From assembly GCF_051903065.1 (NCBI RefSeq), contig NZ_CP178438.1: DNA of 64,000 bases; one strand, written 5' to 3'. Under the pieces are notes generated by a model that was not told the origin of the DNA, ran no database searches, and worked only from the letters and a program-made list of their open reading frames with translations. Positions 1 through 47,289 of this stretch are shown here, piece by piece (within the stretch, counting starts at the first letter, position 1; every line of letters starts with the position of its first letter). This DNA comes from Escherichia coli. GTDB lineage: Bacteria > Pseudomonadota > Gammaproteobacteria > Enterobacterales > Enterobacteriaceae. The translations under genes and the position numbers were made by a program.

Positions 1-78
1 GGTAAAGAAAAACCTGCAGTACTGGGTCATGACGAAGCGGCATACTCCAAAAACCGTCGTGCGGTACTGGTTTACTAA
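1..78 (+). CDS. pal: 3' end of pal (peptidoglycan-associated lipoprotein), cut by window start
   Basis: In-frame C-terminal peptide ending ...NRRAVLVY with TAA at 76-78, directly upstream of cpoB as in the tol-pal cluster. Confidence 0.75.
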   Translation, partial: GKEKPAVLGHDEAAYSKNRRAVLVY

Positions 79-87
79 GAGAATTGC

Positions 88-879
88 ATGAGCAGTAACT
101 TCAGACATCAACTATTGAGTCTGTCGTTACTGGTTGGTATAGCGGCCCCCTGGGCCGCTTTTGCTCAGGCACCAATCAGTAGTGTCGGCTCAGGCTCGGT
201 CGAAGACCGCGTCACTCAACTTGAGCGTATTTCTAATGCTCACAGCCAGCTTTTAACCCAACTCCAGCAACAACTCTCTGATAATCAATCCGATATTGAT
301 TCCCTGCGTGGTCAGATTCAGGAAAATCAGTATCAACTGAATCAGGTCGTGGAGCGGCAAAAGCAGATCCTGTTGCAGATCGACAGCCTCAGCAGCGGTG
401 GTGCAGCGGCGCAATCAACCAGCGGTGATCAAAGCGGTGCGGCGGCATCAACGACGCCGACAGCTGATGCTGGTACTGCGAATGCTGGCGCGCCGGTGAA
501 AAGCGGTGATGCAAACACGGATTACAATGCAGCTATTGCGCTGGTGCAGGATAAATCCCGCCAGGATGACGCAATGGTGGCATTTCAGAATTTCATCAAA
601 AATTACCCTGATTCAACTTACCTGCCAAACGCCAATTATTGGCTGGGTCAGTTAAACTACAACAAGGGTAAAAAAGATGATGCGGCGTACTATTTTGCTT
701 CGGTAGTGAAAAACTATCCGAAGTCACCAAAGGCTGCAGATGCGATGTTTAAAGTCGGCGTCATCATGCAGGACAAAGGTGACACCGCAAAAGCGAAAGC
801 CGTATACCAGCAGGTTATCAGTAAATACCCTGGTACTGATGGCGCTAAACAGGCGCAAAAACGTCTGAACGCGATGTAA
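88..879 (+). CDS. cpoB: Cell division coordinator CpoB (YbgF), TPR-repeat periplasmic protein
   Basis: 263-aa ORF with signal peptide, Gln-rich coiled coil and C-terminal TPR region; position after pal. Confidence 0.9.
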   Translation: MSSNFRHQLLSLSLLVGIAAPWAAFAQAPISSVGSGSVEDRVTQLERISNAHSQLLTQLQQQLSDNQSDIDSLRGQIQENQYQLNQVVERQKQILLQIDSLSSGGAAAQSTSGDQSGAAASTTPTADAGTANAGAPVKSGDANTDYNAAIALVQDKSRQDDAMVAFQNFIKNYPDSTYLPNANYWLGQLNYNKGKKDDAAYYFASVVKNYPKSPKAADAMFKVGVIMQDKGDTAKAKAVYQQVISKYPGTDGAKQAQKRLNAM

Positions 880-1042: not shown

Positions 1043-1118
1043 GGGTCGTTAGCTCAGTTGGTAGAGCAGTTGACTTTTAATCAATTGGTCGCAGGTTCGA
1101 ATCCTGCACGACCCACCA
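1043..1118 (+). tRNA. lysT: tRNA-Lys (anticodon UUU)
   Basis: 76-nt GGGTCGTTAGCTCAGTTGGTAGAGC...CGACCCACCA with anticodon loop CTTTTAA; first gene of array. Confidence 0.95.
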
Positions 1119-1153
1119 CTAACCTAGTTAGTTGTAGTATCCAGCGTAGTATC

Positions 1154-1229
1154 GGGTGATTAGCTCAGCTGGGAGAGCACCTCCCTTACAAGGAGGGGGT
1201 CGGCGGTTCGATCCCGTCATCACCCACCA
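1154..1229 (+). tRNA. valT: tRNA-Val (anticodon UAC)
   Basis: 76-nt GGGTGATTAGCTCAGCTGGGAGAGC...CATCACCCACCA with anticodon loop CTTACAA. Confidence 0.95.
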
Positions 1230-1231
1230 CC

Positions 1232-1307
1232 GGGTCGTTAGCTCAGTTGGTAGAGCAGTTGACTTTTAATCAATTGGTCGCAGGTTCGAATCCTGCACGA
1301 CCCACCA
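1232..1307 (+). tRNA. lysW: tRNA-Lys (anticodon UUU)
   Basis: Identical 76-nt tRNA-Lys copy. Confidence 0.95.
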
Positions 1308-1358
1308 CTAATTACGGTGGGTTCGGTGGAAGTAGTTTGTAGTATCCAGCGCAGTATC

Positions 1359-1434
1359 GGGTGATTAGCTCAGCTGGGAGAGCACCTCCCTTACAAGGAG
1401 GGGGTCGGCGGTTCGATCCCGTCATCACCCACCA
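1359..1434 (+). tRNA. valZ: tRNA-Val (anticodon UAC)
   Basis: Identical 76-nt tRNA-Val copy. Confidence 0.95.
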
Positions 1435-1437
1435 CTC

Positions 1438-1513
1438 GGGTCGTTAGCTCAGTTGGTAGAGCAGTTGACTTTTAATCAATTGGTCGCAGGTTCGAATCCT
1501 GCACGACCCACCA
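1438..1513 (+). tRNA. lysY: tRNA-Lys (anticodon UUU)
   Basis: Identical 76-nt tRNA-Lys copy. Confidence 0.95.
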
Positions 1514-1593
1514 ATTTTAACATCAAACTCAGATGTTAAGCGTGAAGGATAACGTTGCGCCAGCAACGGCCCGTAGGGCGAGCGAAGCGAGTC

Positions 1594-1611
1594 ATCCTGC
1601 ACGACCCACCA
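1594..1611 (+). pseudogene. Orphan 18-nt fragment identical to the 3' end of tRNA-Lys, in the lysY-lysZ spacer
   Basis: ATCCTGCACGACCCACCA matches the tRNA-Lys T-arm and acceptor 3' end with no upstream tRNA body. Confidence 0.6.
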
Positions 1612-1659
1612 ATCTTAAAGATTGGCCCCGAGTAAAAATCTTTCAGGTAACACCCGTAT

Positions 1660-1735
1660 GGGTCGTTAGCTCAGTTGGTAGAGCAGTTGACTTTTAATCA
1701 ATTGGTCGCAGGTTCGAATCCTGCACGACCCACCA
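1660..1735 (+). tRNA. lysZ: tRNA-Lys (anticodon UUU)
   Basis: Identical 76-nt tRNA-Lys copy. Confidence 0.95.
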
Positions 1736-1768
1736 TCCTGAATGATTAAAGCAGCATAATCCCGCAAG

Positions 1769-1844
1769 GGGTCGTTAGCTCAGTTGGTAGAGCAGTTGAC
1801 TTTTAATCAATTGGTCGCAGGTTCGAATCCTGCACGACCCACCA
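1769..1844 (+). tRNA. lysQ: tRNA-Lys (anticodon UUU)
   Basis: Identical 76-nt tRNA-Lys copy, last of array. Confidence 0.95.
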
Positions 1845-13899: not shown

Positions 13900-14688
13900 T
13901 TAGCAAAGCGTGGCGATAATCACGCTGTCGGCGTTGAAGTAAGCCTTGACATTCTGCCCTTGTTCAAGAGAAGCTGCTTCATTTACCGGCACCGTGGCGC
14001 ACAAGGTTTGCCCGTCAGGTAACGCCATTAACACTTCGCACTGTTCTGCGCCGCGCTCTATATGGCGAATAATGCCCGGCAATTGGTTGTCGGCACTCTG
14101 GGCTACAGCGTCATCCTGGGTAATGTTCACCCACGGCGCTTTCAGCAGAATCAACACTTCTTTGCCTTCATCCAGCCCCAGACGCGCACCGCTTTGTGCG
14201 GTAATCGCGGCTTTCAGGCGCGTTTTACCGTCTGCCAGTAACACGTCTACATGTTGTTGAACATCATCATTATTACGAGCGGTGATCGTACCGAACCACT
14301 GGTTACGGGCGCTGGTCTGCAGTGAAAAACGTGAGATGGCTGCCAGCAGACTATTGAGTGGCAGGGCGTCGTCATCACTTAATACATCAAAGGCTTTTTG
14401 CTGGATCTGGGCGAGCAGATCGTAAAGCTGAATCAGTCGTTGGCCATAGCGAGTCAGCATCGCGCCGCCGCCGCCTTTTCCGCCTGTTGCGCGCTCAACC
14501 AGCGTATGCTCGCTTAACTGATTCATTTCGTTAATGGCATCCCAGGCGCTTTTATAGCTGATACCGGCATCTTTCGCCCCCTGGCTGATGGAACCGGAAA
14601 GCGCAATATGTTTTAGTAGTGAAATGCGGCGTGGGTCGGCAAAGAGCTTTTGTTGAAGCTTAAGGGTGAGAAGGATTTCGGCCTGCAT
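13900..14688 (-). CDS. modE: Molybdate-responsive transcriptional regulator ModE
   Basis: 262-aa ORF, HTH N-terminus and tandem Mop domains; divergent from modABC. Confidence 0.9.
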   Translation of the reverse strand: MQAEILLTLKLQQKLFADPRRISLLKHIALSGSISQGAKDAGISYKSAWDAINEMNQLSEHTLVERATGGKGGGGAMLTRYGQRLIQLYDLLAQIQQKAFDVLSDDDALPLNSLLAAISRFSLQTSARNQWFGTITARNNDDVQQHVDVLLADGKTRLKAAITAQSGARLGLDEGKEVLILLKAPWVNITQDDAVAQSADNQLPGIIRHIERGAEQCEVLMALPDGQTLCATVPVNEAASLEQGQNVKAYFNADSVIIATLC

Positions 14689-14690
14689 AA

Positions 14691-14966
<276 letters not shown>

Positions 14967-15089
14967 TTCCCTGAATGCCCGCTTTTGCGGGCGTTATCTT
15001 TTTTCTCAACTTCCTGCTTTTCCTGCCGATATTTTTTCTAGCTACCTCTCAAAGGTTAACAATAACTGCTGGGAAAATTCTGAGCTTAC

Positions 15090-15122
15090 CGTTATATTGA
15101 CGCCTACATAACGTTATATAAA
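15090..15122. promoter_or_regulatory. ModE operator in the modA promoter
   Basis: CGTTATATTGACGCCTACATAACGTTATATAAAG with TATAT/TACAT repeats, immediately upstream of modA. Confidence 0.55.
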
Positions 15123-15132
15123 GGGGTTATAA

Positions 15133-15906
15133 ATGGCGCGTAAATGGTTAAATCTGGTTGCCGGAGCGGCACTCTCTTTCACTGTTGCTGGCAATGCACT
15201 GGCGGACGAAGGGAAAATCACGGTTTTTGCGGCAGCATCGCTGACGAACGCAATGCAGGACATTGCTACGCAGTATAAAAAAGAGAAAGGCGTGGGTGTG
15301 GTTTCTTCTTTTGCCTCGTCTTCTACCCTGGCCCGTCAGATTGAAGCGGGTGCGCCTGCGGATCTGTTTATTTCTGCCGATCAGAAATGGATGGATTATG
15401 CGGTTGATAAAAAAGCGATCGATACAGCTACGCGTCAGACACTGCTCGGCAATAGCCTGGTCGTTGTAGCACCGAAAGCCAGCGAGCAGAAAGATTTCAT
15501 CATCGACAGCAAAACTAACTGGACTTCGCTGCTGAATGGCGGTCGTCTGGCTGTTGGCGATCCTGAACATGTTCCTGCTGGCATTTATGCGAAAGAAGCA
15601 CTGCAAAAACTGGGCGCATGGGATACGCTCTCTCCGAAACTGGCCCCAGCGGAAGATGTACGTGGGGCGCTGGCGCTGGTCGAACGTAACGAAGCGCCTC
15701 TGGGCATTGTCTACGGTTCTGACGCAGTTGCCAGCAAAGGGGTAAAAGTAGTCGCCACCTTCCCGGAAGATTCGCATAAAAAAGTGGAATATCCGGTTGC
15801 TGTCGTGGAAGGACATAACAACGCCACGGTGAAAGCATTTTATGATTATTTGAAAGGGCCGCAGGCAGCGGAAATCTTTAAACGTTACGGATTTACAACT
15901 AAGTAA
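15133..15906 (+). CDS. modA: Molybdate ABC transporter periplasmic binding protein ModA
   Basis: 257-aa ORF with signal peptide. Confidence 0.95.
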   Translation: MARKWLNLVAGAALSFTVAGNALADEGKITVFAAASLTNAMQDIATQYKKEKGVGVVSSFASSSTLARQIEAGAPADLFISADQKWMDYAVDKKAIDTATRQTLLGNSLVVVAPKASEQKDFIIDSKTNWTSLLNGGRLAVGDPEHVPAGIYAKEALQKLGAWDTLSPKLAPAEDVRGALALVERNEAPLGIVYGSDAVASKGVKVVATFPEDSHKKVEYPVAVVEGHNNATVKAFYDYLKGPQAAEIFKRYGFTTK

Positions 15907-27366: not shown

Positions 27367-28137
27367 TTATTTGATTTCAATTTTGTCCCACTCCCTGCCT
27401 CTGTCATCGCGATACTGTGATGCCATGGTGTCCGACTTATGCCCGAGAAGATGTTGAGCAAACTTATCGCTTATCTGCTTCTCATAGAGTCTTGCAGACA
27501 AACTGCGCAACTCGTGAAAGGTAGGCGGATCCCCTTCGAAGGAAAGACCTGATGCTTTTCGTGCGCGCATAAAATACCTTGATACTGTGCCGGATGAAAG
27601 CGGTTCACGACGGGTAGATGCAATTATGGTTTCTCCGCCAAGAATCTCTTTGCATTTATTAAGTGTTTCCTTCATTGATATCCCGAGAGCATCAACATGC
27701 AATGTTGTAGGGATGGCAATTTTTACGCCTGTTTTGCTTTGCTCGACATAAATATATCCATCTACGATATCAGACCACTTCATTTCGCATAAATCACCAA
27801 CTCGCTGCCCGGTAACAACAGCCAGTTCCATTGCAAGTCTGAGCCAACATGGTGATGATTCTGCTGCTTGATAAATTTTCAGGTATTCATCAGCCGTAAG
27901 TCTTGATCTCCTTACCTCTGATTTTGCTGCGCGAGTGGCAGCGACCGGGTTTGTTGTTGCATGGCCTTCAGCTAATGCCTCTCGGAATGCATCGCTCAGT
28001 GTTGATCTGATTAACTTGGCTGATGCCGCCTTGCCCTCGTCTATGTATCCATTGAGCATTGCCGCAATTTCTTTTGTGGTGATGTCTTCAAGTGGAACAT
28101 CAGGTAGCCCCCTCCTTATTGCTTTAATTTTGCTCAT
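27367..28137 (-). pseudogene. int: Lambda-type integrase Int, 5'-truncated (C-terminal about 255 codons only)
   Basis: Translation MSKIKAIRRGLPD...HLLGHKSDTMASQYRDDRGREWDKIEIK matches lambda Int from about residue 101 to the C-terminus; homology ends at 28137 where the IS left end begins. Confidence 0.9.
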
Positions 28138-29340
28138 GTGTATTAGTCGCGACTTGATCTGACACTGAGCCTTGAAAGGTTGAGAGTTACCGGTTTTGAT
28201 ATGGGTGTCGAATCCTTATACAAAACACGAGGTAACTCTCATGCTTCATACTAACAATCCCGTCATCAAACACAAAGCCGGTTTGCTCAATCTGGCTGAA
28301 GAACTCCGCAATGTTTCGAAGGCCTGCAAAATCATGGGCGTCTCGCGTGATACGTTTTACCGTTATCGCGAACTGGCTGATGAAGGTGGGGTGGATGCAC
28401 TGATTAACCGCACTCGACGAACGCCCAATCTAAAAAATCGTACCGATGATGCAACTGAGCGGGCCGTTGTTGATTATGCCATCGCGTACCCTGCGCATGG
28501 CCAGCACCGGACCAGCAATGAGCTACGTAAGCAAGGTGTCTTCATCTCAGGAAGGGGTGTACGTTCTGTCTGGCTGCGGCATAACCTTGAGAACTTCAAA
28601 AAGCGGCTGAAAGCACTGGAGGAAAAAGTAGCCCGTGACGGTATCGAGCTGACAGAAGCACAGATAGTCGTTCTGGAGCGTAAAGCCAGCGATGACGAAG
28701 CGTGTGGTGAAATCGAAACCGCACATCCCGGTTATCTGGGCTCTCAGGATACGTTCTACGTGGGTAATCTGAAAGGAGTCGGACGCATTTATCAGCAAAC
28801 GTTCGTTGACACCTACTCGAAGGTCGCACACTGTAAACTGTATGTAACCAAAACACCGATCACGGCTGCTGACCTGCTGAATGATCGTGTGTTGCCATTT
28901 TACGAATCGCAAAACCTGCCAATGCTGAGAATACTGACCGACAGAGGAACAGAGTACTGCGGTAAGGTGGAACAGCATGACTACCAGCTATATCTGGCAA
29001 TAAATGATATAGACCACACGAAAACTAAAGCGATGTCACCGCAGACAAATGGCATCTGCGAGCGGTTCCATAAGACGATACTGAACGAATTTTATCAGGT
29101 GACGTTCCGTAAAAAGTTGTATGGAGCTCTCGATACATTGCAATCGGATCTTGATGAGTGGCTGGCTCACTATAATAATGAACGAACCCATCAGGGAAAA
29201 ATGCGCAATGGGCGGACGCCAATGGAAACGTTACTTGATGGAAAGCGCATCTGGGCCGAGAAAAATTTAAGCCGGATGTAATCTGACAGATACCTGTATA
29301 AATAACCGGTAACTGTCAGATCAGGTCTGAGCTAATACAC
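28138..29340 (+). mobile_element. IS element, about 1.2 kb, IS481-like (single-ORF DDE transposase, TGT...ACA termini)
   Basis: Imperfect terminal inverted repeats (left TGTATTAG..TTGATCTGACA, right TGTCAGATCAGGTCTGAGCTAATACACA) flank one transposase ORF; family is my inference. Confidence 0.7.
28241..29281 (+). CDS. DDE transposase (integrase-core type) of the IS element
   Basis: 346 aa from ATG at 28241 (track ORF starts at an upstream TTG); N-terminal HTH and DDE-type core region. Confidence 0.75.
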   Translation: MLHTNNPVIKHKAGLLNLAEELRNVSKACKIMGVSRDTFYRYRELADEGGVDALINRTRRTPNLKNRTDDATERAVVDYAIAYPAHGQHRTSNELRKQGVFISGRGVRSVWLRHNLENFKKRLKALEEKVARDGIELTEAQIVVLERKASDDEACGEIETAHPGYLGSQDTFYVGNLKGVGRIYQQTFVDTYSKVAHCKLYVTKTPITAADLLNDRVLPFYESQNLPMLRILTDRGTEYCGKVEQHDYQLYLAINDIDHTKTKAMSPQTNGICERFHKTILNEFYQVTFRKKLYGALDTLQSDLDEWLAHYNNERTHQGKMRNGRTPMETLLDGKRIWAEKNLSRM

Positions 29341-30238
29341 ATTTGTAGGCCTCGATACATCAGGGACTCCAAATTACGTTATAGATAACAACAGCAAACC
29401 AGCCCAGCGCAATACGATCATCGGTCTCTATGGCGAAATTAACGGGAACGGGATGGTAAGGGGGCCTTGGACAATTCTTGGTGCCAGAGCGCAATATAGT
29501 AGCTGGGTATCAACCATTGACCATATGTCACACCTAATCGGCACCGATGCTACAGCAGGTAACCAGGGGGGGGATACCTTAAGCGCATCAGTAAACAACC
29601 TCTGCCCATCTGGCGACTGGTCATTACTTGATGGTGTTCTTGGCGCTCCAATTGACTATCAGCTACAAGTAGTACCAGCAGAGGCATTGGTTAAAACTGA
29701 TGTAATTGAGCCTTCTGGTGTTGGAAGAGCATTTGGTGTGAATGCTGCAAGCGCCCAATGCAAGATAGTGGTTAACCTGACCAGAGCTAACACAGATTTT
29801 ATCAGGGGAGCATTCTATTGGTGGGGCGATGCTCCATTACAGATCGCATTGGAGACACAAGATAATTCAAATCAGATTTTCTTTCAGCCAGACAAATACT
29901 TTGGCATGAACCATGGAGGCTGGAGGCTTTACAGAATATCTGCCCCTACAAACGACTGGACCAAGGCATACCGTTTGGCAATCACGATATCATCTGGGAA
30001 GTCAGGATTCATAGGTGGTTCAATTTTTAGTTGTTATCAGGCCTCCCTTCTCCCTACTTTTTGTGGATGGAGGCATGTAAAAGTTCTGTCATCGGGTAAG
30101 CCAACAATCACTAACACTTCAGGTTTCGTAAATGGCATCCAGGCACACAGAACCTCTGTGCCATCATACCCAGGGGACCCTACGGTAATGTGGGTATGGA
30201 ACGGAACCACTTGGCTTACAGTGAATGCTTCTGCATAA
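29336..30238 (+). pseudogene. Phage tail-fibre or tailspike gene, 3' fragment only
   Basis: Reading frame opens exactly at the IS right end (29336) and runs to 30238; Gly/Ser/Thr/Trp-rich; sits upstream of gtrCBA as a tailspike does in P22-like phages; assignment is positional and compositional. Confidence 0.5.
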
Positions 30239-30265
30239 AAAAGGGTGGCCTAGCCACCATCTATG

Positions 30266-31873
30266 CTAAATACTTATTTTAACATCTGTATATCTTTCTT
30301 GACCTTTAAATAAACCGAATTCGATCCATTCGATATCACCTTTATCAATGTTTGCCCCTGTTAAAAAACCACCGTCAAAGTTCATTGAGTCAGGGTAGAA
30401 ATCGAAATTTTGTACCTTATCTTTCCCTTTGTATTTGACGTGTAGAAAAATCTTCAGAGCACCATCTTTTGGCAAGGTAATATTTCTGTTAGTCTCGAAT
30501 GCAATACGCCCATCATTTGTAATATAAACGTTCTTAACATCCGCTTGGCGTGGAATTATGTTTTTGTTTACGACCATCTTTTTTCCGCTGAATACAATCG
30601 AGTAGTCCAGTTTCGCCATATTCCTTTCAATTGAAAGCACCCCATAGTACTTTCCATAAGACCACTTGTTATGGTAAGGATCAAACTTGTCTCCACTCTT
30701 GGCAAGTTTAGAAAAATAGAAATCAGGTATTCTCAACTCCCTTTTCCCTTGCGAGATTTGCTTGTCGATTAAATACTTTCTAACCTCTGATTGATGGAAA
30801 GTTTCTTTGTAAGATTCATACATCCAAAGGTATTGAGGTATAAAATACAATATAACCAAAGCAAATAATGAGCATGTCAAATATTTTTGAGTTAAAGTGA
30901 AAAAAGAATCCTTTAATAAAAAAGATACAGCAATCAAAACAAGAATCAAAGTGCCATTTGCAGCCCTGGGAGGATAGGAAGGTGCTGCAAACATAATTAA
31001 GGATGTGGATAATGCTGCAAATAAGAATATCAATGCTAATGTTGTTGATTTCTTATCTGTCTTTTCGCGCAAGAGATTTATTAATGCGATAATTGTGAAA
31101 GCCAGAAATAAAGGCCACATGATGGAAATGACATCGGGCATCCTGGAGTATAAATGCTCAACTAGCCTTTCAATTAAAGGTTTAGAGTACCAGGCGCTAA
31201 AAGATTTGGCTCTTTCATAATTTCCTGGAGCGGCAATTAAGGCGATGAATCCCGCTAAAGATAATAAGGTATAGATAAGCCCTCTATGGCGTAAAGACCT
31301 AATTATATACGCATTATATAAATAATAAATGCCAGAGAGAATAACAACTACCGCGCCAGTATTTTCGTTTGAGCACCCCGCCATCACTGCGAGAATGGAG
31401 GTTAAATAGATGTTATATCTTTTTATTACGCACAATAAGTATGCGCAAATGAACATGTTTGTCCAAAGGTAATTTGCTGAACCAACAATCCAGAAAGTGG
31501 TTTGCCCTAAATTTGTATTGCTTACCCAGTAAAGCATAAAAATAGTTAATATTTTTATGCAATCGAATTTATTTATCTCTCCTGCTGAAGAACCAATAAG
31601 AAATATTAAATAAACACTTGAAGTCAATGCTAGTGAATTTGCTATTGCTCTATAAAATTCAGGAATGGAAAGCATCGCTGTGCTGGCATAATCAGCCACT
31701 ATTCTGCCACTCCAGCTCTCATAGTGCTTTAAGTGCTCAGAAATACTTAATCCCTTTAACGCGTAAAGATAATCATCTGAATGCATGGGTGTATGCATGC
31801 AAATGCTAAGAGTAATAAAAAATATTACTAACAAAGATAATGTATGTAAAAAATAACTATTTATTCTAGGCAT
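30266..31873 (-). CDS. GtrC-like serotype-specific O-antigen glucosyltransferase (polytopic membrane N-domain plus soluble C-domain)
   Basis: 535-aa ORF, about 10 predicted TM segments then a roughly 200-aa hydrophilic domain; AT-rich; downstream of gtrB with 1-bp overlap. Confidence 0.65.
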   Translation of the reverse strand: MPRINSYFLHTLSLLVIFFITLSICMHTPMHSDDYLYALKGLSISEHLKHYESWSGRIVADYASTAMLSIPEFYRAIANSLALTSSVYLIFLIGSSAGEINKFDCIKILTIFMLYWVSNTNLGQTTFWIVGSANYLWTNMFICAYLLCVIKRYNIYLTSILAVMAGCSNENTGAVVVILSGIYYLYNAYIIRSLRHRGLIYTLLSLAGFIALIAAPGNYERAKSFSAWYSKPLIERLVEHLYSRMPDVISIMWPLFLAFTIIALINLLREKTDKKSTTLALIFLFAALSTSLIMFAAPSYPPRAANGTLILVLIAVSFLLKDSFFTLTQKYLTCSLFALVILYFIPQYLWMYESYKETFHQSEVRKYLIDKQISQGKRELRIPDFYFSKLAKSGDKFDPYHNKWSYGKYYGVLSIERNMAKLDYSIVFSGKKMVVNKNIIPRQADVKNVYITNDGRIAFETNRNITLPKDGALKIFLHVKYKGKDKVQNFDFYPDSMNFDGGFLTGANIDKGDIEWIEFGLFKGQERYTDVKISI

Positions 31874-32790
31874 TACTTATTATCCTTCAAAATATAACGA
31901 GGACGCTGCTTAACCTCGACATAAATTCTTCCTATATATTCACCCAGGACACCGATTCCGATCAACTGGATGCCTCCAAGAAACAGGGTAGAAACCAGTA
32001 AAGATGGATACCCACGCACGGCGTTACCGAATGCAATCGTGTCAAATATCATCCAAGCACCATAAAGAAAGGCAGCACCGGCAACGAACAGGCCAATGTA
32101 AGTCCACATGCGCAGCGGAAAGGTAGAGAAGCTGGTGATCCCCTCAAGGGCAAGGTTCCAGAGTTTCCAACCGTTGAACTTCGTGCTGCCAGCTACGCGT
32201 TCTGCGCGCGCATATTCAACCACATCAGTGCGTCCGCCAACCCAGCTCAATACGCCCTTCATGAACAGGTTGCGTTCTGGCATGAGCTTAATGTTTTCCA
32301 CTACTTCGCGAGACATGAGCCGGAAGTCGCCGACATTCTCTTCTATCTGAGGGTTGCTGATTTTGTTGTGAAGTTTATAGAACCACTCAGCAGATTTACG
32401 CTTCAGCCGGCTGTCAGTGGAGCGGTCAGATCGCTTAGCCAGCACCATATCAGCCCCGGCCTGCCACTTCTCGATGAGGTGAGGAATGACCTCAATCGGG
32501 TCCTGAAGGTCAACATCAATCGGGATAACCGCCTCACCAGTTGCGTGGTCAAGCCCTGCGAACAGTGCGGGCTCTTTACCGAAATTACGGGTGAAGGAAA
32601 GAGGAACGACAAGCGGATCAGCCACAGCAAGCGCGTTTATAATTGATTCTGTCGCGTCTTTGCTGCCGTCATTTATGAAGACTATCTCGACTTCATGCTG
32701 CTGAAGCCCTTCAAATTCCCGAACAGTTTTATAAAAAATAGGTATCGCGTCTTCTTCGTTAAAGACGGGAACGACCAGAGAAATTTTCAT
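31873..32790 (-). CDS. gtrB: Bactoprenol glucosyltransferase GtrB (GT2 family)
   Basis: 305-aa ORF starting [13 protein letters not shown] with DxD-type region and two C-terminal TM helices. Confidence 0.9.
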
Positions 32791-33149
32791 TTCGCATCCC
32801 TAAAGACAATGAACTTTGAATAAATAAAACCGCACACCAGACTGATGGCGGAGAAGGTGATAAGAGTGATAATTGGAGGAAGCGAGCACTTATCAGCAGC
32901 CCATCCAACAGTAGCACTCAGTGTTCCCATGAACCCGACATATAACATGTAGCGCATCGTTGTAGTCGATGCTTTGAATGTGAATTTTGCATTCGCGAAG
33001 AAGCTAAAGCTCACAGCCACAACGAAACCTGCGAAGTTTGCCAGAGCCTGATTGGTATGCGCGGCATAGATACATACACCAAAAACCACCCAGTGTATAA
33101 GTGTGTTCAGCACACCAATCGAGGTGTACTTTGCAAATAGCTTTAACAT
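32787..33149 (-). CDS. gtrA: GtrA flippase-like small membrane protein
   Basis: 120-aa four-TM ORF directly upstream of gtrB with 4-bp overlap. Confidence 0.85.
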
Positions 33150-33699: not shown

Positions 33700-34176
33700 T
33701 TAACTAAACATCGCGGTAATCGATGCGCTTGCCAGAGAGTGGAAATGAACGTTAAACCCGACCATCGCGCCGCTGGCTCCTTCATCGACATCAATACGCT
33801 CTACATCCAGCGCGTGAACGGTAAAAATGTAGCGATGGGTTTCGCCTTTCGGCGGCGCTGCGCCATCGTATCCGGTTTTACCAAAATCGGTACGCGTCTG
33901 CAAAACGCCGTCTGGCATTGCTACCAGACCAGAGCCAAACCCTTGCGGTAATACGCGGGTATCAGCGGGTAAATTAACAACTACCCAGTGCCACTAGCCG
34001 GAGCCGGTTGGCGCATCCGGGTCGTAGCAGGTGACGACAAAACTTTTCGTTCCCGCAGGAACATCATCCCACGCCAGATGCGGTGAAATATTATCGCCAT
34101 CGTAACCCATGCCGTTAAAGACATGACGATGTGGCAACTTATCGCCATCGCGCAGATCATTACTGATGAGTTTCAT
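33700..34176 (-). pseudogene. ybhB: ybhB (PEBP/RKIP-family protein) with in-frame amber stop
   Basis: Track ORFs 33994-34176 and 33700-33918 are one frame split by TAG at 33994-33996, where I recall Trp in K-12 YbhB; downstream sequence WHWVVVNLPADTRVLPQGFGSGLVAMPDG... stays in frame. Confidence 0.85.
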
Positions 34177-34284
34177 TAGAATGCCTCCGGGAAACCTCGG
34201 CCTTCAGGCCGGGGAGGAAAGGAGGCGGTTTTCCGACTAACTGTACTTTGCATAATTACATTTTCCTCTTTAGTATGTGAACAC

Positions 34285-35401
34285 ATGAAACGCGCATATA
34301 AATACCGGTTTTACCCGACAACTGAGCAGGCTGAGCTTTTAGCTCAGACGTTCGGCTGTGTGCGCTTCGTCTACAATTCCATCCTTCGTTGGCGTACCGA
34401 TGCGTACTACGAGCGAAAGGAAAAGATCGGTTATCTACAGGCCAACGCTCGCCTTACGGCGCTCAAAAAAGAGCCTGAATACATATGGCTGAATGTCCCC
34501 TCCAGCAGTCGTTGCGCCACCAACAAGCCGCCTTTGCTAACTTCTTTGCCGGACGAGCTGCATATCCGGCTTTCAAAAGCAAACGGCACAAACAGGTGGC
34601 TGAGTTCACTGCCAGCGCGTTTAAACACCGTGACGGCGAGTTGTATATAGCAAAAGCAAGTCGCCTCTGGATGTTCGCTGGAGTCGAGAATTACCCTCTG
34701 CGCCGTCAACCGTTACCATTTCCAGAGATAGCGCTGGCAGGTACTTTGTTTCCTGCCTGTGTGAGTTTGAACCTGTATCAATGCCTGTTACCGCTAAAAC
34801 GGTCGGCATTGATGTGGGCTTAAAAGATTTATTCGTTACCGATACCGGATTCAAAACCGACAATCCCCGCCACACCGCTAAATATGCGAAGCGATTAACG
34901 CTGCTACAGCGATGTTTAAGCAGGAAGCAAAAAGGCTCAAGAAACCGTATTAAAGCCCGCTTAAAGGTCGCCCGACTCCACGCGAAAATCGCCGATTGCC
35001 GGATGGACAATCTACACAAGTTGTCCCGCAAACTGATTAACGAAAACCAAGTTGTTTGCGTCGAATCCCTCAAGGTGAAAAACATGATCCGCAACCCGAA
35101 GCTGTCTAAAGCAATAGCTGACGCAGGCTGGAGCGAACTTGTTCGCCAGCTCCAGTACAAAGGCAAATGGGCCGAGCGGTCAGTGGTCGCCATTGACCAG
35201 TATTTACCGTCCTCAAAATGCTGTAGTTGCTGCGGTTTCACCATGCAAAAAATGCCTCTTAATGTTCGTAAATGGCACTGCCCTGAATGCGGCGCAGACC
35301 ATGATCGCGACATTAACGCGGCACGTAATATTAAAGCTGCCGGGCTGGCAGTGTTAGCCCACGGAGAGCCTGTAAACCCTGAATCGCAGCACGCGGCTTA
35401 G
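34285..35401 (+). pseudogene. tnpB: IS200/IS605-family tnpB (RNA-guided nuclease family), two frameshifts
   Basis: N-terminus MKRAYKYRFYPTTEQAELLAQTFGCVRFVYN; middle and C-terminal parts (VTISRDSAGRYFVSCLCEF, GIDVGLKDLF, CxxC...CxxC zinc finger) lie in two other frames; no tnpA nearby. Confidence 0.85.
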
Positions 35402-43090: not shown

Positions 43091-43127
43091 CAGGATAACG
43101 AAGAAGACAGATGACAAAAGCAAAATT

Positions 43128-43224
43128 GCCTGATGTGCTACGCTTATCAGGCCTACATGATTCTGCAATACATTGAATTAGCGCGGTTTGTAGGCCGGAT
43201 AAGACGTTCACGCCGCATCCGGCA
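43128..43224. repeat. REP elements between uvrB and ybhK
   Basis: GCCTGATGTGCTACGCTTATCAGGCCTAC and GTAGGCCGGATAAGACGTTCACGCCGCATCCGGC units. Confidence 0.75.
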
Positions 43225-43280
43225 TAAACAACGCGCACTTTGTCTTCAATAGGAAGCCGGAATTTTCCTTCGGATTTCCG

Positions 43281-44249
<969 letters not shown>

Positions 44250-44449
44250 TTAACCTGCCAATATTGAGGATACAAACTATTTTCTTCTACCTCTAAAGGA
44301 CGATGCACGCTATGCCTCCCTGATGATGTATATCAAAGTAAAACCGCCATTTTCCCTTATTCTGTAGCGAAATAGCACGATCATGACGCTATATACATGA
44401 TTACATAGCGAAAGTGTGGATGGTAAAAATCTCATTTACACGCTAGTAT

Positions 44450-44585
44450 CGGCTTAACCACTAAACACTCTAGCCTCTGCACCTGGGTCAACTGATATGG
44501 TGCTTTGGCCGTGACAATGCTCGTAAAGATTGCCACCAGGGCGAAGGAAGAAATGACTTCGCCTCCCGTATCTGGAAAGGTGTAC
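44450..44585 (+). ncRNA. moaA 5' leader, putative molybdenum-cofactor (Moco) riboswitch
   Basis: Long structured leader upstream of moaA; a Moco RNA motif is established for E. coli moaA; boundaries approximate and fold not computed. Confidence 0.45.
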
Positions 44586-45575
44586 ATGGCTTCACAACTG
44601 ACTGATGCATTTGCGCGTAAGTTTTACTACTTGCGCCTGTCGATTACCGATGTGTGTAACTTTCGTTGCACCTACTGCCTGCCGGATGGCTACAAACCGA
44701 GCGGCGTCACCAATAAAGGCTTTCTGACCGTCGATGAAATTCGCCGGGTTACGCGCGCCTTCGTCAGTCTGGGCACCGAAAAAGTGCGCCTGACAGGCGG
44801 TGAGCCGTCTTTACGCCGCGACTTTACCGATATCATCGCCGCTGTGCGAGAAAACGACGCTATTCGCCAGATAGCGGTCACCACCAATGGTTACCGTCTG
44901 GAACGCGATGTGGCGAACTGGCGCGATGCGGGACTTACTGGCATTAACGTCAGCGTCGACAGTCTGGACGCCCGCCAGTTTCATGCCATTACCGGCCAGG
45001 ATAAATTCAATCAGGTGATGGCAGGGATCGATGCTGCATTTGAGGCCGGTTTTGAGAAGGTCAAAGTCAATACCGTGCTGATGCGTGATGTGAATCATCA
45101 CCAGCTCGACACCTTTCTGAACTGGATCCAGCATCGCCCTATCCAGCTGCGTTTCATCGAACTGATGGAAACGGGCGAGGGCAGCGAGCTCTTCCGTAAG
45201 CATCACATCTCTGGTCAGGTTCTGCGTGACGAGCTACTGCGTCGCGGCTGGATCCACCAATTACGTCAACGCAGCGACGGTCCCGCGCAAGTCTTTTGTC
45301 ATCCGGATTACGCCGGAGAGATTGGCCTTATCATGCCGTATGAAAAAGACTTCTGCGCCACTTGCAACCGCCTGCGCGTTTCCTCCATTGGTAAACTCCA
45401 TCTCTGCCTGTTTGGTGAAGGCGGTGTTAACCTGCGCGATCTGCTGGAAGACGATACCCAGCAACAGGCGCTGGAAGCGCGTATTTCAGCGGCACTGCGG
45501 GAGAAGAAACAGACCCATTTCCTGCATCAAAACAACACCGGTATTACGCAAAACTTATCGTACATTGGCGGCTAA
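44586..45575 (+). CDS. moaA: GTP 3',8-cyclase MoaA (radical SAM)
   Basis: 329 aa from [31 protein letters not shown]. Confidence 0.95.
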
Positions 45576-45596: not shown

Positions 45597-46109
45597 ATGA
45601 GTCAGGTAAGCACTGAATTTATCCCGACCCGTATTGCTATTCTTACGGTTTCTAATCGTCGCGGTGAAGAAGACGATACCTCCGGTCACTATTTGCGCGA
45701 TTCGGCGCAAGAAGCTGGCCATCACGTTGTCGATAAAGCCATTGTGAAAGAAAACCGCTACGCTATTCGCGCTCAGGTATCTGCGTGGATCGCCAGCGAC
45801 GATGTACAAGTGGTGTTGATTACGGGTGGTACTGGCCTGACGGAAGGTGATCAGGCTCCCGAAGCATTGCTGCCGTTGTTCGACCGTGAAGTTGAAGGTT
45901 TTGGTGAAGTGTTCCGTATGTTGTCGTTTGAAGAGATTGGCACTTCCACGTTGCAATCTCGTGCGGTAGCGGGCGTCGCTAACAAAACGCTGATTTTCGC
46001 AATGCCGGGTTCGACCAAAGCGTGCCGTACCGCATGGGAAAATATCATCGCGCCGCAGCTGGATGCCCGTACGCGTCCGTGTAATTTCCATCCACATTTG
46101 AAGAAATAA
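45597..46109 (+). CDS. moaB: Molybdenum cofactor biosynthesis protein MoaB
   Basis: 170-aa ORF, next in moaABCDE. Confidence 0.9.
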
Positions 46110-46111
46110 GT

Positions 46112-46597
46112 ATGTCGCAACTGACCCATATCAACGCCGCTGGCGAAGCGCACATGGTGGATGTCTCCGCCAAAGCGGAAACCGTGCGTGAAGCGCGGGC
46201 GGAAGCCTTTGTCACCATGCGCAGCGAGACGCTGGCGATGATTATTGATGGTCGCCACCACAAAGGCGACGTATTTGCCACTGCGCGTATTGCCGGTATT
46301 CAGGCGGCAAAACGCACCTGGGATCTGATCCCGCTGTGTCATCCGCTGATGCTCAGCAAAGTTGAAGTCAATTTACAGGCCGAGCCGGAGCACAATCGGT
46401 TGCGTATAGAAACCTTATGCCGCCTGACCGGGAAAACCGGTGTCGAAATGGAAGCGTTAACCGCGGCCTCCGTGGCGGCGCTGACCATTTATGACATGTG
46501 CAAAGCGGTGCAAAAAGATATGGTGATTGGTCCGGTACGTTTGCTGGCGAAGAGCGGCGGCAAGTCGGGTGACTTTAAGGTGGAAGCGGATGATTAA
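46112..46597 (+). CDS. moaC: Cyclic pyranopterin monophosphate synthase MoaC
   Basis: 161-aa ORF. Confidence 0.95.
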
Positions 46598-46835
46598 AGT
46601 TCTTTTTTTCGCCCAGGTGCGCGAGTTGGTAGGAACAGATGCAACCGAAGTGGCTGCGGATTTCCCAACCGTTGAAGCGTTACGCCAGCACCTGGCTGCG
46701 CAGAGCGATCGCTGGGCGCTGGCGCTGGAAGATGGCAAATTACTGGCTGCCGTCAACCAGACGCTGGTGAGTTTTGACCATCCGCTGACTGACGGCGACG
46801 AAGTAGCTTTCTTCCCGCCGGTAACCGGAGGTTAA
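46590..46835 (+). CDS. moaD: Molybdopterin synthase sulfur-carrier subunit MoaD
   Basis: 81 aa from [12 protein letters not shown] ending in GG; overlaps moaC end. Confidence 0.9.
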
Positions 46836-46836
46836 G

Positions 46837-47289
46837 ATGGCAGAAACCAAAATTGTTGTTGGTCCGCAGCCGTTCAGCGTAGGAGAAGAGTACCCGTGGC
46901 TGGCGGAGCGTGACGAAGACGGTGCGGTAGTCACCTTTACCGGTAAGGTGCGCAACCATAACCTGGGCGACAGCGTCAAAGCATTAACCCTCGAACACTA
47001 TCCGGGGATGACTGAAAAAGCACTGGCAGAAATTGTCGATGAAGCGCGTAACCGCTGGCCGCTTGGGCGCGTCACGGTGATTCACCGCATCGGGGAATTA
47101 TGGCCGGGCGATGAAATCGTTTTTGTCGGTGTCACCAGTGCGCATCGCAGCAGTGCGTTTGAAGCCGGGCAGTTTATTATGGATTATCTCAAAACCCGCG
47201 CACCGTTCTGGAAGCGCGAAGCCACGCCGGAGGGCGACCGCTGGGTCGAAGCCCGGGAAAGCGATCAGCAGGCGGCAAAACGCTGGTAG
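46837..47289 (+). CDS. moaE: Molybdopterin synthase catalytic subunit MoaE
   Basis: 150-aa ORF. Confidence 0.95.
   Translation: MAETKIVVGPQPFSVGEEYPWLAERDEDGAVVTFTGKVRNHNLGDSVKALTLEHYPGMTEKALAEIVDEARNRWPLGRVTVIHRIGELWPGDEIVFVGVTSAHRSSAFEAGQFIMDYLKTRAPFWKREATPEGDRWVEARESDQQAAKRW

What the first reader, a model, noticed from the sequence alone, without database searches (positions are those of the whole stretch)
44250..44585. Long structured moaA leader consistent with the Moco riboswitch
About 400 bp separate divergent ybhK and moaA. The roughly 140 nt directly upstream of the moaA start are GC-balanced with several complementary segments, matching the known location of the Moco RNA motif. 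I cannot confirm the fold without computation.
Basis: established knowledge. Interest (0 to 1): 0.25.

Follow-up and report, generated by a model that had tools for sequence, protein, structure and literature searches.

The report
Known E. coli moaA Moco riboswitch
The leader in front of moaA is the well-known molybdenum-cofactor riboswitch of E. coli, almost identical to the laboratory-strain copy already tested in experiments, so the finding is correct but ordinary.

Summary
The finding is confirmed and is already known. The Rfam Moco model (RF01055) matches window 44454-44598 (+) over its full length: 104.5 bits against a gathering score of 36, E 5.9e-25. RefSeq annotates the same bases as "molybdenum cofactor riboswitch". 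The 431 nt around it differ from E. coli K-12 at two positions (44454, 44498). Only 44498 lies inside the RNA that Regulski et al. (2008) tested. It is an unpaired base of the P2 tetraloop-receptor loop, and homologues carry U, C or A there.

All five helices map onto the sequence. The GG of the Shine-Dalgarno sequence (44579-80) sits in the 3' strand of P1, and the moaA AUG is at 44586-88. In 19 homologues fetched here, 32 of 41 pairs show compensatory changes (90.9% of cells paired; 33-45% when partners are slid).

- The intergenic gap is 396 bp.
- The element runs 13 nt into moaA.
- Positions 44250-44453 are promoter DNA (FNR-like and ModE sites), not riboswitch.
- Free-energy folding alone is not better than chance (z -1.11).

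Most likely mechanism: a Moco-dependent translational OFF switch, modulated by CsrA and Rho. Direct ligand binding has never been demonstrated.

The parts
44454..44598 (+). Moco (molybdenum cofactor) riboswitch, full Rfam RF01055 match
   Evidence: 104.5 bits against a gathering score of 36, E 5.9e-25, model 1-135/135. The same bases are annotated 'molybdenum cofactor riboswitch' in RefSeq records.
44465..44583 (+). Aptamer core from the 5' end of P1 to the 3' end of P1 (119 nt). This fits the published constructs: 138 moaA = 44456-44593 and 149 moaA = 44456-44604.
   Evidence: Helix mapping. Regulski 2008 defines the constructs as 9 nt upstream of P1 to 10 or 21 nt beyond it (PMC2408646).
44456..44470 (+). 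P1 5' strand. Core pairs are 44465-68 and 44470. Outer pairs are 44456-57 and 44459. A44464 faces A44584 as a mismatch.
   Evidence: cmscan alignment projected onto window coordinates. Five of the 6 core pairs and all 3 outer pairs show compensatory changes in homologues.
44579..44592 (+). P1 3' strand. 44579-83 pair with 44470 and 44468-65. G44589 pairs with C44459. U44591-92 pair with A44457-56. The start codon lies in the internal loop 44585-88.
44473..44509 (+). P2: 44473-83 paired with 44499-509, with an internal UCU/UUU mismatch at 44476-78/44504-06. The tip hairpin is 44487-89/44494-96. The tetraloop-receptor halves are CCUGGG 44482-87 and UAUGG 44496-500.
   Evidence: All 11 P2 pairs show compensatory change in homologues.
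44498..44498 (+). U/C polymorphism in the receptor half: U here, C in K-12. It is unpaired in the model.
   Evidence: The U allele is in 360 and the C allele in 5063 of 5426 complete E. coli genomes. Homologues carry U in 9, C in 4 and A in 2.
44511..44536 (+). P3 hairpin. Its presence marks the Moco subtype rather than the tungsten-cofactor subtype. This is the stem whose disruption and restoration was tested in K-12.
   Evidence: All 5 model pairs covary. The M1/M2 mutants are described in PMC2408646.
44539..44564 (+). P4 hairpin with GAAA (GNRA) tetraloop at 44550-53 and tandem G-A/A-G mismatches at 44547-48/44555-56. It contains GGA motif 44546-48, a candidate CsrA site.
   Evidence: That CsrA has two sites within the aptamer comes from PMC7652899. 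Assigning them to the two GGA motifs is my inference.
44565..44575 (+). P5 (CC/GG with a 7-nt loop) inside the most conserved stretch, GCCUCCC...GGAAAGG. It contains the second GGA motif, 44574-76.
44577..44582 (+). Shine-Dalgarno region AAGGUG. G44579 and G44580 are paired in P1.
   Evidence: Sequence and pair map. Regulski 2008 places the ribosome binding site within P1.
44586..45575 (+). moaA (GTP 3',8-cyclase), the first regulated gene. It is followed by moaB 45597-46109, moaC 46112-46597, moaD 46590-46835 and moaE 46837-47289.
   Evidence: Pfam matches Radical_SAM and Mob_synth_C.
44444..44449 (+). Likely -10 hexamer (TAGTAT) of the ModE-dependent S1 promoter, putting the S1 start near 44455-58. 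The site is inferred.
   Evidence: The published 131-nt leader between S1 and the start codon (PMC2408646) places S1 near 44455. The generic promoter scan found no strong sigma-70 site.
44387..44410 (+). ModE-type operator: CGCTATATA-N6-TACATAGCG, containing TATAT-N7-TACAT.
   Evidence: Inverted repeat. The pattern TATAT-N7-TAYAT occurs twice in 64 kb against 0.15 expected, and the other copy is the modA operator at 15093-15109. ModE activation of S1 is reported in PMC2408646. The consensus pattern is from my own knowledge.
44323..44336 (+). FNR-like half-site pair ATGAT-N4-ATCAA, about 40 bp upstream of the expected S2 start (~44368-71).
   Evidence: One mismatch to TTGAT-N4-ATCAA. This is not significant on its own: 4 matches in the window against 2.8 expected. 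Its position fits the published FNR-dependent S2 at -87.
43281..44189 (-). ybhK/yvcK, the divergent neighbour that bounds the intergenic region.

Best explanation
Window 44454-44598 is the E. coli moaA molybdenum-cofactor (Moco) riboswitch, the founding member of Rfam family RF01055.

The moaABCDE mRNA is made from two promoters: an FNR-dependent S2 near 44368-71 and a ModE-dependent S1 near 44455. Its leader folds into a five-helix aptamer (P1-P5) around a central junction. A GAAA loop on P4 can dock into a receptor loop in P2. The 3' strand of the closing helix P1 contains the GG of the Shine-Dalgarno sequence, and the AUG lies 3 nt beyond P1.

When Moco, or a close pathway product, is abundant, the folded aptamer is stabilised. 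P1 then holds the ribosome binding site closed and moaA translation falls. This makes it an OFF switch giving feedback control of Moco synthesis. CsrA binding at two sites in the aptamer opposes this and activates translation. Untranslated leader RNA is also subject to Rho-dependent termination.

Shown here:
- Family membership.
- The helix map.
- Covariation support for the helices.
- Sequestration of the Shine-Dalgarno sequence, read from the sequence.
- Near-identity to the tested K-12 RNA.

Taken from the K-12 literature:
- Moco-dependent repression.
- The requirement for P3.
- The CsrA and Rho effects.

Inferred:
- That this strain behaves the same way.
- That the ligand binds the RNA directly.
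For: - Full-length RF01055 match: 104.5 bits against a gathering score of 36, E 5.9e-25. No competing family in 44150-44700.
- Identical bases are annotated as molybdenum cofactor riboswitch in RefSeq. The region is present in 5424 of 5426 complete E. coli genomes.
- Only 2 of 431 nt differ from K-12, and K-12 scores 103.6 bits. One difference (44454) lies outside the tested constructs. The other (44498) is an unpaired position that varies naturally.
- A model built here from this sequence found 19 homologues among 99 of the 120 loci fetched by a core-motif pattern. On them 90.9% of cells pair, against 65.9% in shuffles and 33-45% when partners are slid. Compensatory changes occur in 32 of 41 pairs and in all of P1-P4.
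- Downstream genes of those homologues are moaA (10), ABC-transporter ATPases (3; one scanned, Pfam ABC_tran), solute-binding proteins and a MoCF_biosynth protein. Here the regulated genes are moaABCDE.
- The Shine-Dalgarno GG 44579-80 pairs with C44470 and C44468 in P1. Many homologues keep GGAAAGGUG followed by AUG.
- No intrinsic terminator in the leader, which fits translational and Rho control.
- Literature: Moco-dependent repression, P3 disruption and rescue, and the ribosome binding site in P1 (PMC2408646). CsrA activation at two aptamer sites (PMC7652899). Rho-dependent 3' ends and higher moaA fusion expression in a rho mutant (PMC7815308). RNA-seq evidence of termination (PMC12121620).
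Against: - Direct binding of Moco or any intermediate to this RNA has never been shown, and the regulating metabolite is unidentified (PMC2408646; PMC10845959).
- Thermodynamic folding does not favour the consensus fold. The MFE is -40.2 kcal/mol, against -33.3 for the fold constrained to the consensus, and z is -1.11. The fold therefore depends on tertiary contacts, ions, ligand or co-transcriptional order, none of which is modelled here.
- The E. coli receptor 5' half is CCUGGG, not the canonical CCUAAG.
- No experiment exists for this strain's U44498 allele.
- The covariation alignment was fitted to the model structure, and the P5 and P4-base columns were fixed by the search pattern.
Confidence: 0.93

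Rival explanations
1. The leader is a conserved structured RNA, but it does not sense Moco directly. Repression would be delivered by a protein, for example a Moco-carrier or Moco-loaded protein, or CsrA alone, that recognises the fold.
For: No direct ligand binding has been demonstrated, and the regulating metabolite is unidentified. CsrA does bind two sites within the aptamer. The leader has exactly two GGA motifs, at 44546-48 and 44574-76.
Against: No protein acting on this region has been found apart from CsrA, which activates rather than represses. The junction sequence is conserved from Gammaproteobacteria to Clostridia and candidate phyla, with varied downstream genes and expression platforms. 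That pattern is typical of metabolite aptamers rather than of protein operators.
Confidence: 0.05
2. The main output is premature Rho-dependent transcription termination in the leader or early moaA, not a block of translation initiation as such.
For: Rho-dependent 3' ends were mapped at moaA, and fusion expression rose more than 2-fold in rhoR66S (PMC7815308). RNA-seq edge detection calls termination at this riboswitch (PMC12121620). No intrinsic terminator is present.
Against: Regulski's effect was measured with translational fusions, and the Shine-Dalgarno sequence lies in P1. Rho action on an untranslated leader is the expected consequence of blocked translation, so this complements the main model rather than replacing it.
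Confidence: 0.15
3. The complementary segments are a chance feature of an ordinary 5' UTR with no structural function.
For: The MFE z-score is only -1.11.
Against: The covariance-model E-value is 5.9e-25. Compensatory changes occur in 32 of 41 pairs. Published mutational disruption and rescue support the structure.
Confidence: 0.005

Closest known systems
E. coli K-12 moaA Moco RNA (138/149 moaA constructs of Regulski et al. 2008; Rfam RF01055)
   Same: Same locus (ybhK-moaA intergenic region), same length, same helices P1-P5, same GAAA loop, same Shine-Dalgarno sequence in P1 and same start codon. 429 of 431 nt are identical. Rfam scores are 104.5 here and 103.6 for K-12.
   Different: T instead of A at 44454, which is at or just before the S1 start and outside the tested RNA. 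U instead of C at 44498, which gives the canonical UAUGG receptor half. The U allele is the minority in E. coli: 360 genomes against 5063.
P3-lacking Moco-motif variants proposed to sense the tungsten cofactor (Tuco/Wco)
   Same: Same P1, P2, P4 and P5 and the same junction core.
   Different: This element has a full P3 hairpin (44511-44536), the feature associated with Moco rather than tungsten-cofactor specificity.
Moco-motif representatives with intrinsic-terminator expression platforms (e.g. in Clostridia)
   Same: Same aptamer family.
   Different: No terminator hairpin or U-tract is present here. The expression platform is the P1 helix itself, which covers the ribosome binding site.
E. 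coli btuB adenosylcobalamin riboswitch and other translational OFF switches
   Same: A cofactor-responsive leader that hides the ribosome binding site, with secondary effects on mRNA through Rho.
   Different: Unrelated fold and ligand. This one is additionally co-regulated by CsrA binding inside the aptamer.

Membership tests
Rfam RF01055 Moco/Tuco riboswitch (Moco RNA motif) | Covariance-model score at or above the curated gathering score over the whole model | tested here: met
   104.5 bits against 36, model positions 1-135 of 135, E 5.9e-25. Repeated on the sub-region.
Rfam RF01055 Moco/Tuco riboswitch (Moco RNA motif) | Helices P1-P5 around a multistem junction, supported by covariation | tested here: met
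   35 of the 41 model pairs that remain are standard pairs in this sequence; one model pair is lost to a deletion. In 20 sequences 90.9% of cells pair and 32 of 41 pairs show compensatory change, against 33-45% paired in slid controls. Caveats: the alignment was fitted to the model, and the P5 and P4-base columns were fixed by the fetch pattern.
Rfam RF01055 Moco/Tuco riboswitch (Moco RNA motif) | GNRA tetraloop on P4 and a tetraloop receptor in the P2 bulge | tested here: met
   GAAA at 44550-53. Receptor halves are CCUGGG 44482-87 and UAUGG 44496-500. The 5' half departs from the canonical CCUAAG. Docking itself cannot be tested here.
Rfam RF01055 Moco/Tuco riboswitch (Moco RNA motif) | Highly conserved junction sequence (…GCCUCCC-N7-GGAAAGG…) | tested here: met
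   44561-44580 reads GCCUCCCGUAUCUGGAAAGG. The same core is in all 19 homologues, but that is partly by construction of the search pattern.
Rfam RF01055 Moco/Tuco riboswitch (Moco RNA motif) | Lies in the 5' leader, on the same strand, of Moco biosynthesis, molybdate transport or Moco-enzyme genes | tested here: met
   Immediately upstream of and overlapping the start of moaABCDE.
Moco-specific subtype (as opposed to the tungsten-cofactor subtype) | Presence of the P3 stem | tested here: met
   P3 at 44511-15/44532-36, extended to 9 standard pairs in the constrained fold. The subtype criterion is from PMC2408646.
Translational OFF-switch expression platform | Ribosome binding site included in the P1 helix | tested here: met
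   G44579 and G44580 of AAGGUG pair with C44470 and C44468. The AUG is at 44586-88. Actual occlusion of ribosomes is not testable here.
Riboswitch in the strict sense | Moco-dependent repression of the downstream gene that requires the conserved structure | not testable with these tools
   Shown for the K-12 149-nt leader, which differs from this one at 1 nt. Repression was more than 3-fold, was lost in P3 mutant M1 and was restored in M2 (PMC2408646).
Riboswitch in the strict sense | Direct, protein-free binding of the metabolite to the RNA | not testable with these tools
   Not demonstrated in the literature either, because Moco is too unstable. The identity of the ligand remains open.

The most novel reading that the evidence does not exclude
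The minority U44498 allele is found in 360 of 5426 complete E. coli genomes, including O157:H7. It restores the canonical UAUGG half of the GAAA-tetraloop receptor, where K-12 and 93% of genomes have UACGG. This might strengthen P2-P4 docking and shift the Moco set-point or the CsrA responsiveness of moaA translation in these lineages.
Probability: 0.08. Interest if true: 0.2.

Novelty: already known. Interest (0 to 1): 0.06.

Why it matters
This result mainly tidies up the annotation. The element is the textbook E. coli moaA Moco riboswitch, which feeds the level of finished cofactor back onto the first operon of its synthesis. It sits on top of anaerobic (FNR) and molybdate (ModE) promoter control. 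The open question is general to the field and not specific to this window: which molecule binds the RNA, and whether it binds directly. The only local twist is a natural U/C variant in the tetraloop-receptor loop, which could serve as a ready-made allele pair for testing the role of that tertiary contact.

Tried and rejected
1. **Thermodynamic folding as evidence.** The MFE z-score is -1.11, so it gives no support. The MFE also replaces P1 and P2 with an alternative helix, 44478-84/44578-84 plus 44472-75/44588-91.
2. **That alternative helix as a conserved second conformer.** On the 20-sequence alignment it pairs in 59.3% of cells against 56.9% in shuffles (82 of 500 shuffles as high), and its covariation equals the shuffles. 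Rejected as a conserved feature.
3. **A long-range pairing predicted in the longer S2 transcript.** It would join 44389-98 (the RNA copy of the ModE site) to the Shine-Dalgarno/AUG region 44580-89. The best duplex is -12.5 kcal/mol against -11.0 +/- 2.1 for dinucleotide shuffles, and 222 of 1000 shuffles are as good. Rejected as chance.
4. **Other RNA families in the intergenic region.** There is only a sub-threshold ES003 match at 14.3 bits, E 3.9. Rejected.
5. **An intrinsic terminator as expression platform.** None is present in the leader.
6. **The generic sigma-70 scan.** It found no promoter. The S1 and S2 positions therefore rest on published distances plus weak -10 matches.
7. **The FNR consensus search.** It is not significant window-wide and is kept only as positional support.
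8. **Assuming the window is O157:H7.** The leader is 100% identical to O157:H7, but the flanks are not collinear with it. The window is collinear with only three non-O157 genomes.
9. **Papers not held.** Patterson-Fortin 2013 (PMC3710303) and Studholme & Pau 2003 (PMC317290) were not available. The exact CsrA footprints and the ModE consensus are therefore second-hand or from my own knowledge.

Full report
**Observation**

The flagged interval lies between two divergent genes. ybhK (named yvcK in current RefSeq) starts at 44189 on the minus strand. moaA starts with ATG at 44586-88 on the plus strand. The gap is therefore 396 bp.

The last ~140 nt before moaA are 50% G+C and contain complementary segments such as GGCGAAG/CTTCGCC at 44540-46/44557-63.

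Free-energy folding alone does not show unusual structure. The MFE is -40.2 kcal/mol with z = -1.11, and 27 of 200 shuffles fold as well.

**The decisive test**

Scanning the whole window against Rfam 15 gives a full-length match to RF01055 (Moco RNA motif) at 44454-44598 (+). It scores 104.5 bits against a gathering score of 36, with E 5.9e-25.

A permissive scan of 44150-44700 finds nothing else credible.

**Comparison with annotated genomes**

- The 431 nt at 44190-44620 occur in 5424 of 5426 complete E. coli genomes, at 99% identity or more in 5236. PGAP marks the same bases as "molybdenum cofactor riboswitch".
- Against K-12 MG1655 there are two differences: T for A at 44454 and T for C at 44498.
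- The K-12 leader scores 103.6 bits.
- The window is not O157:H7, even though the leader is identical to that lineage. O157:H7 carries a ~21 kb prophage between ybhC and ybhB that is absent here.
- Only three genomes are collinear over 20000-44600.

**Anatomy**

I projected the cmscan alignment onto window coordinates.

| Element | Coordinates | Notes |
|---|---|---|
| P1 core | 44465-70 / 44579-83 | Outer pairs 44456-57/44591-92 and 44459/44589 |
| P2 | 44473-83 / 44499-509 | Internal UCU/UUU mismatch; tip hairpin 44487-89/44494-96 |
| P3 | 44511-15 / 44532-36 | Extendable to nine standard pairs |
| P4 | 44539-49 / 44554-64 | Capped by GAAA at 44550-53 |
| P5 | 44565-66 / 44574-75 | |

- From the 5' end of P1 to its 3' end is 119 nt. 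That fits the published 138-nt and 149-nt K-12 constructs, which run from 9 nt upstream of P1 to 10 or 21 nt downstream: 44456-44593 and 44456-44604.
- The Shine-Dalgarno sequence AAGGUG (44577-82) has its GG paired in P1. The AUG sits in the internal loop just beyond P1.
- Position 44454 falls outside the tested RNA, at or just before the S1 start.
- Position 44498 is an unpaired base in the UAUGG half of the P2 tetraloop receptor.
- The U allele occurs in 360 genomes and the K-12 C allele in 5063.
- Homologues from other taxa carry U (9), C (4) or A (2) at this position. Both alleles therefore lie within natural variation.

**Independent structural support**

I fetched 120 loci from a collection of species-representative genomes using the core pattern GCCTCCC-N7-GGAAAGGNG. 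I then built a covariance model from this leader plus the K-12 leader and searched 99 of the loci.

Nineteen matched at E ≤ 0.002. They come from Colwellia, Thalassotalea, Vibrio, Plesiomonas, Desulfurellales, Calditrichota, Aminicenantes, Bipolaricaulota and others.

On this alignment:
- 90.9% of cells form standard pairs, against 65.9% in shuffles and 33-45% when partners are slid.
- 32 of 41 pairs carry compensatory double changes, spread over P1-P4.

Two caveats apply. The alignment is fitted to the model, and P5 and the base of P4 were fixed by the pattern.

The genes downstream of the homologues are moaA (10), ABC-transporter ATPases (3; one scanned, Pfam ABC_tran), solute-binding proteins and a MoCF_biosynth-domain protein. 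This is the family's expected gene association. Many homologues keep GGAAAGGUG followed within a few nucleotides by AUG, the same platform as here.

**Surroundings**

- The palindrome CGCTATATA-N6-TACATAGCG at 44387-44410 contains TATAT-N7-TACAT. That pattern occurs only twice in the 64 kb, against 0.15 expected. The other copy is the modA operator at 15093-15109, just upstream of modA, with modE next door. This is a useful internal control for a ModE site.
- An FNR-like ATGAT-N4-ATCAA lies at 44323-36. It is not significant by itself. It sits about 40 bp upstream of where the published S2 start (-87 relative to S1) should be.
- The published 131-nt leader puts S1 near 44455, downstream of a TAGTAT hexamer at 44444-49.
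- There is no intrinsic terminator in the leader.

**Mechanism**

From Regulski et al. 2008 (PMC2408646):
- The K-12 leader represses a translational reporter more than 3-fold when Moco synthesis is induced.
- Repression is lost when P3 is disrupted and returns when P3 is restored.
- The ribosome binding site is part of P1.

From other papers:
- CsrA binds two sites in the aptamer and activates translation (PMC7652899). The leader has exactly two GGA motifs, at 44546-48 and 44574-76. Assigning them as the CsrA sites is my inference.
- Rho-dependent 3' ends and de-repression in a rho mutant were reported (PMC7815308). An RNA-seq method also calls termination at this riboswitch (PMC12121620).

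The best model is a Moco-stabilised fold that closes P1 over the Shine-Dalgarno sequence. CsrA counteracts this, and Rho acts on the untranslated RNA.

Direct binding of the ligand has never been shown, and the ligand's identity is open. A protein-mediated mechanism therefore remains a small residual possibility.

**Rejected ideas**

- The MFE's alternative helix (44478-84/44578-84) has no covariation support: 59.3% paired against 56.9% in shuffles.
- The predicted long-range pairing of the upstream part of the S2 transcript with the Shine-Dalgarno/AUG region is no better than shuffled sequence (222 of 1000).

**Verdict**

The element is already known and annotated, and it is 2 nt from the experimentally studied K-12 copy. 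Interest is low.

Noticed in passing
window 1-117 (+): Rfam CpoB/ybgF ICR thermometer (RF02782), 102.9 bits, cut off at the 5' end of the window.
   Followed up: no
window 1043-1844 (+): Array of seven tRNA genes: Lys, Val, Lys, Val, Lys, Lys, Lys. An Rfam RtT match (RF00391, 54.4 bits against a gathering score of 45) at 1445-1611 overlaps the third tRNA-Lys and the 146-nt spacer after it.
   Followed up: partly
window 13900-15906: modE lies at 13900-14688 (-), followed by a small AcrZ-like ORF, then modA at 15133-15906 (+). The ModE operator CGTTATATTGACGCCTACATAACG at 15090-15113 lies just upstream of modA. It is the only other TATAT-N7-TAYAT site in the window.
   Followed up: partly
window ~27367-33149: The lambda attachment region between ybhC and ybhB holds a truncated tyrosine integrase, an IS481-family transposase, a hypothetical gene and a three-gene gtr-like glucosylation cluster (bactoprenol glucosyl transferase, GT2, DUF6056). 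Only 3 of 5426 complete E. coli genomes are collinear with window 20000-44600. O157:H7 has a ~21 kb prophage carrying nleB2, nleC, nleH and nleD there instead.
   Followed up: partly
window 33700-35401: In the identical RefSeq record, ybhB is annotated as a pseudogene with an internal stop (33700-34176). A frameshifted TnpB/InsQ gene sits between ybhB and bioA (34285-35401).
   Followed up: no
window 43091-43280: The uvrB-ybhK intergenic region is made of REP-like palindromic units. K-12 scores above threshold for the ES036 (CssrF) sRNA family (43.4 bits). The window copy has several substitutions and falls to 20.7 bits, and there is also a sub-threshold naRNA4 match.
   Followed up: partly
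window 44215-44229: Perfect palindrome GCGCTAC-A-GTAGCGC, 26-40 nt upstream of the ybhK start codon. It is identical in K-12. Its function is unknown; it could be a hairpin in the ybhK leader or a protein-binding site.
   Followed up: no
L124 1779-2987 (E. coli strain 774; equivalent to window 44307/44308): One clinical isolate carries an IS4-like ISVsa5 element in the moaA promoter region, upstream of the FNR-like site. The riboswitch and moaA are intact. Seven of the 5424 matching genomes cover less than 80% of the 431-nt query.
   Followed up: partly
window 44586-45575: The MoaA protein here (WP_104773346.1 in the collinear record) is a different accession from the common E. coli MoaA (WP_001295301.1), which is the one in the O157:H7 record and in strain 774.
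   Followed up: no
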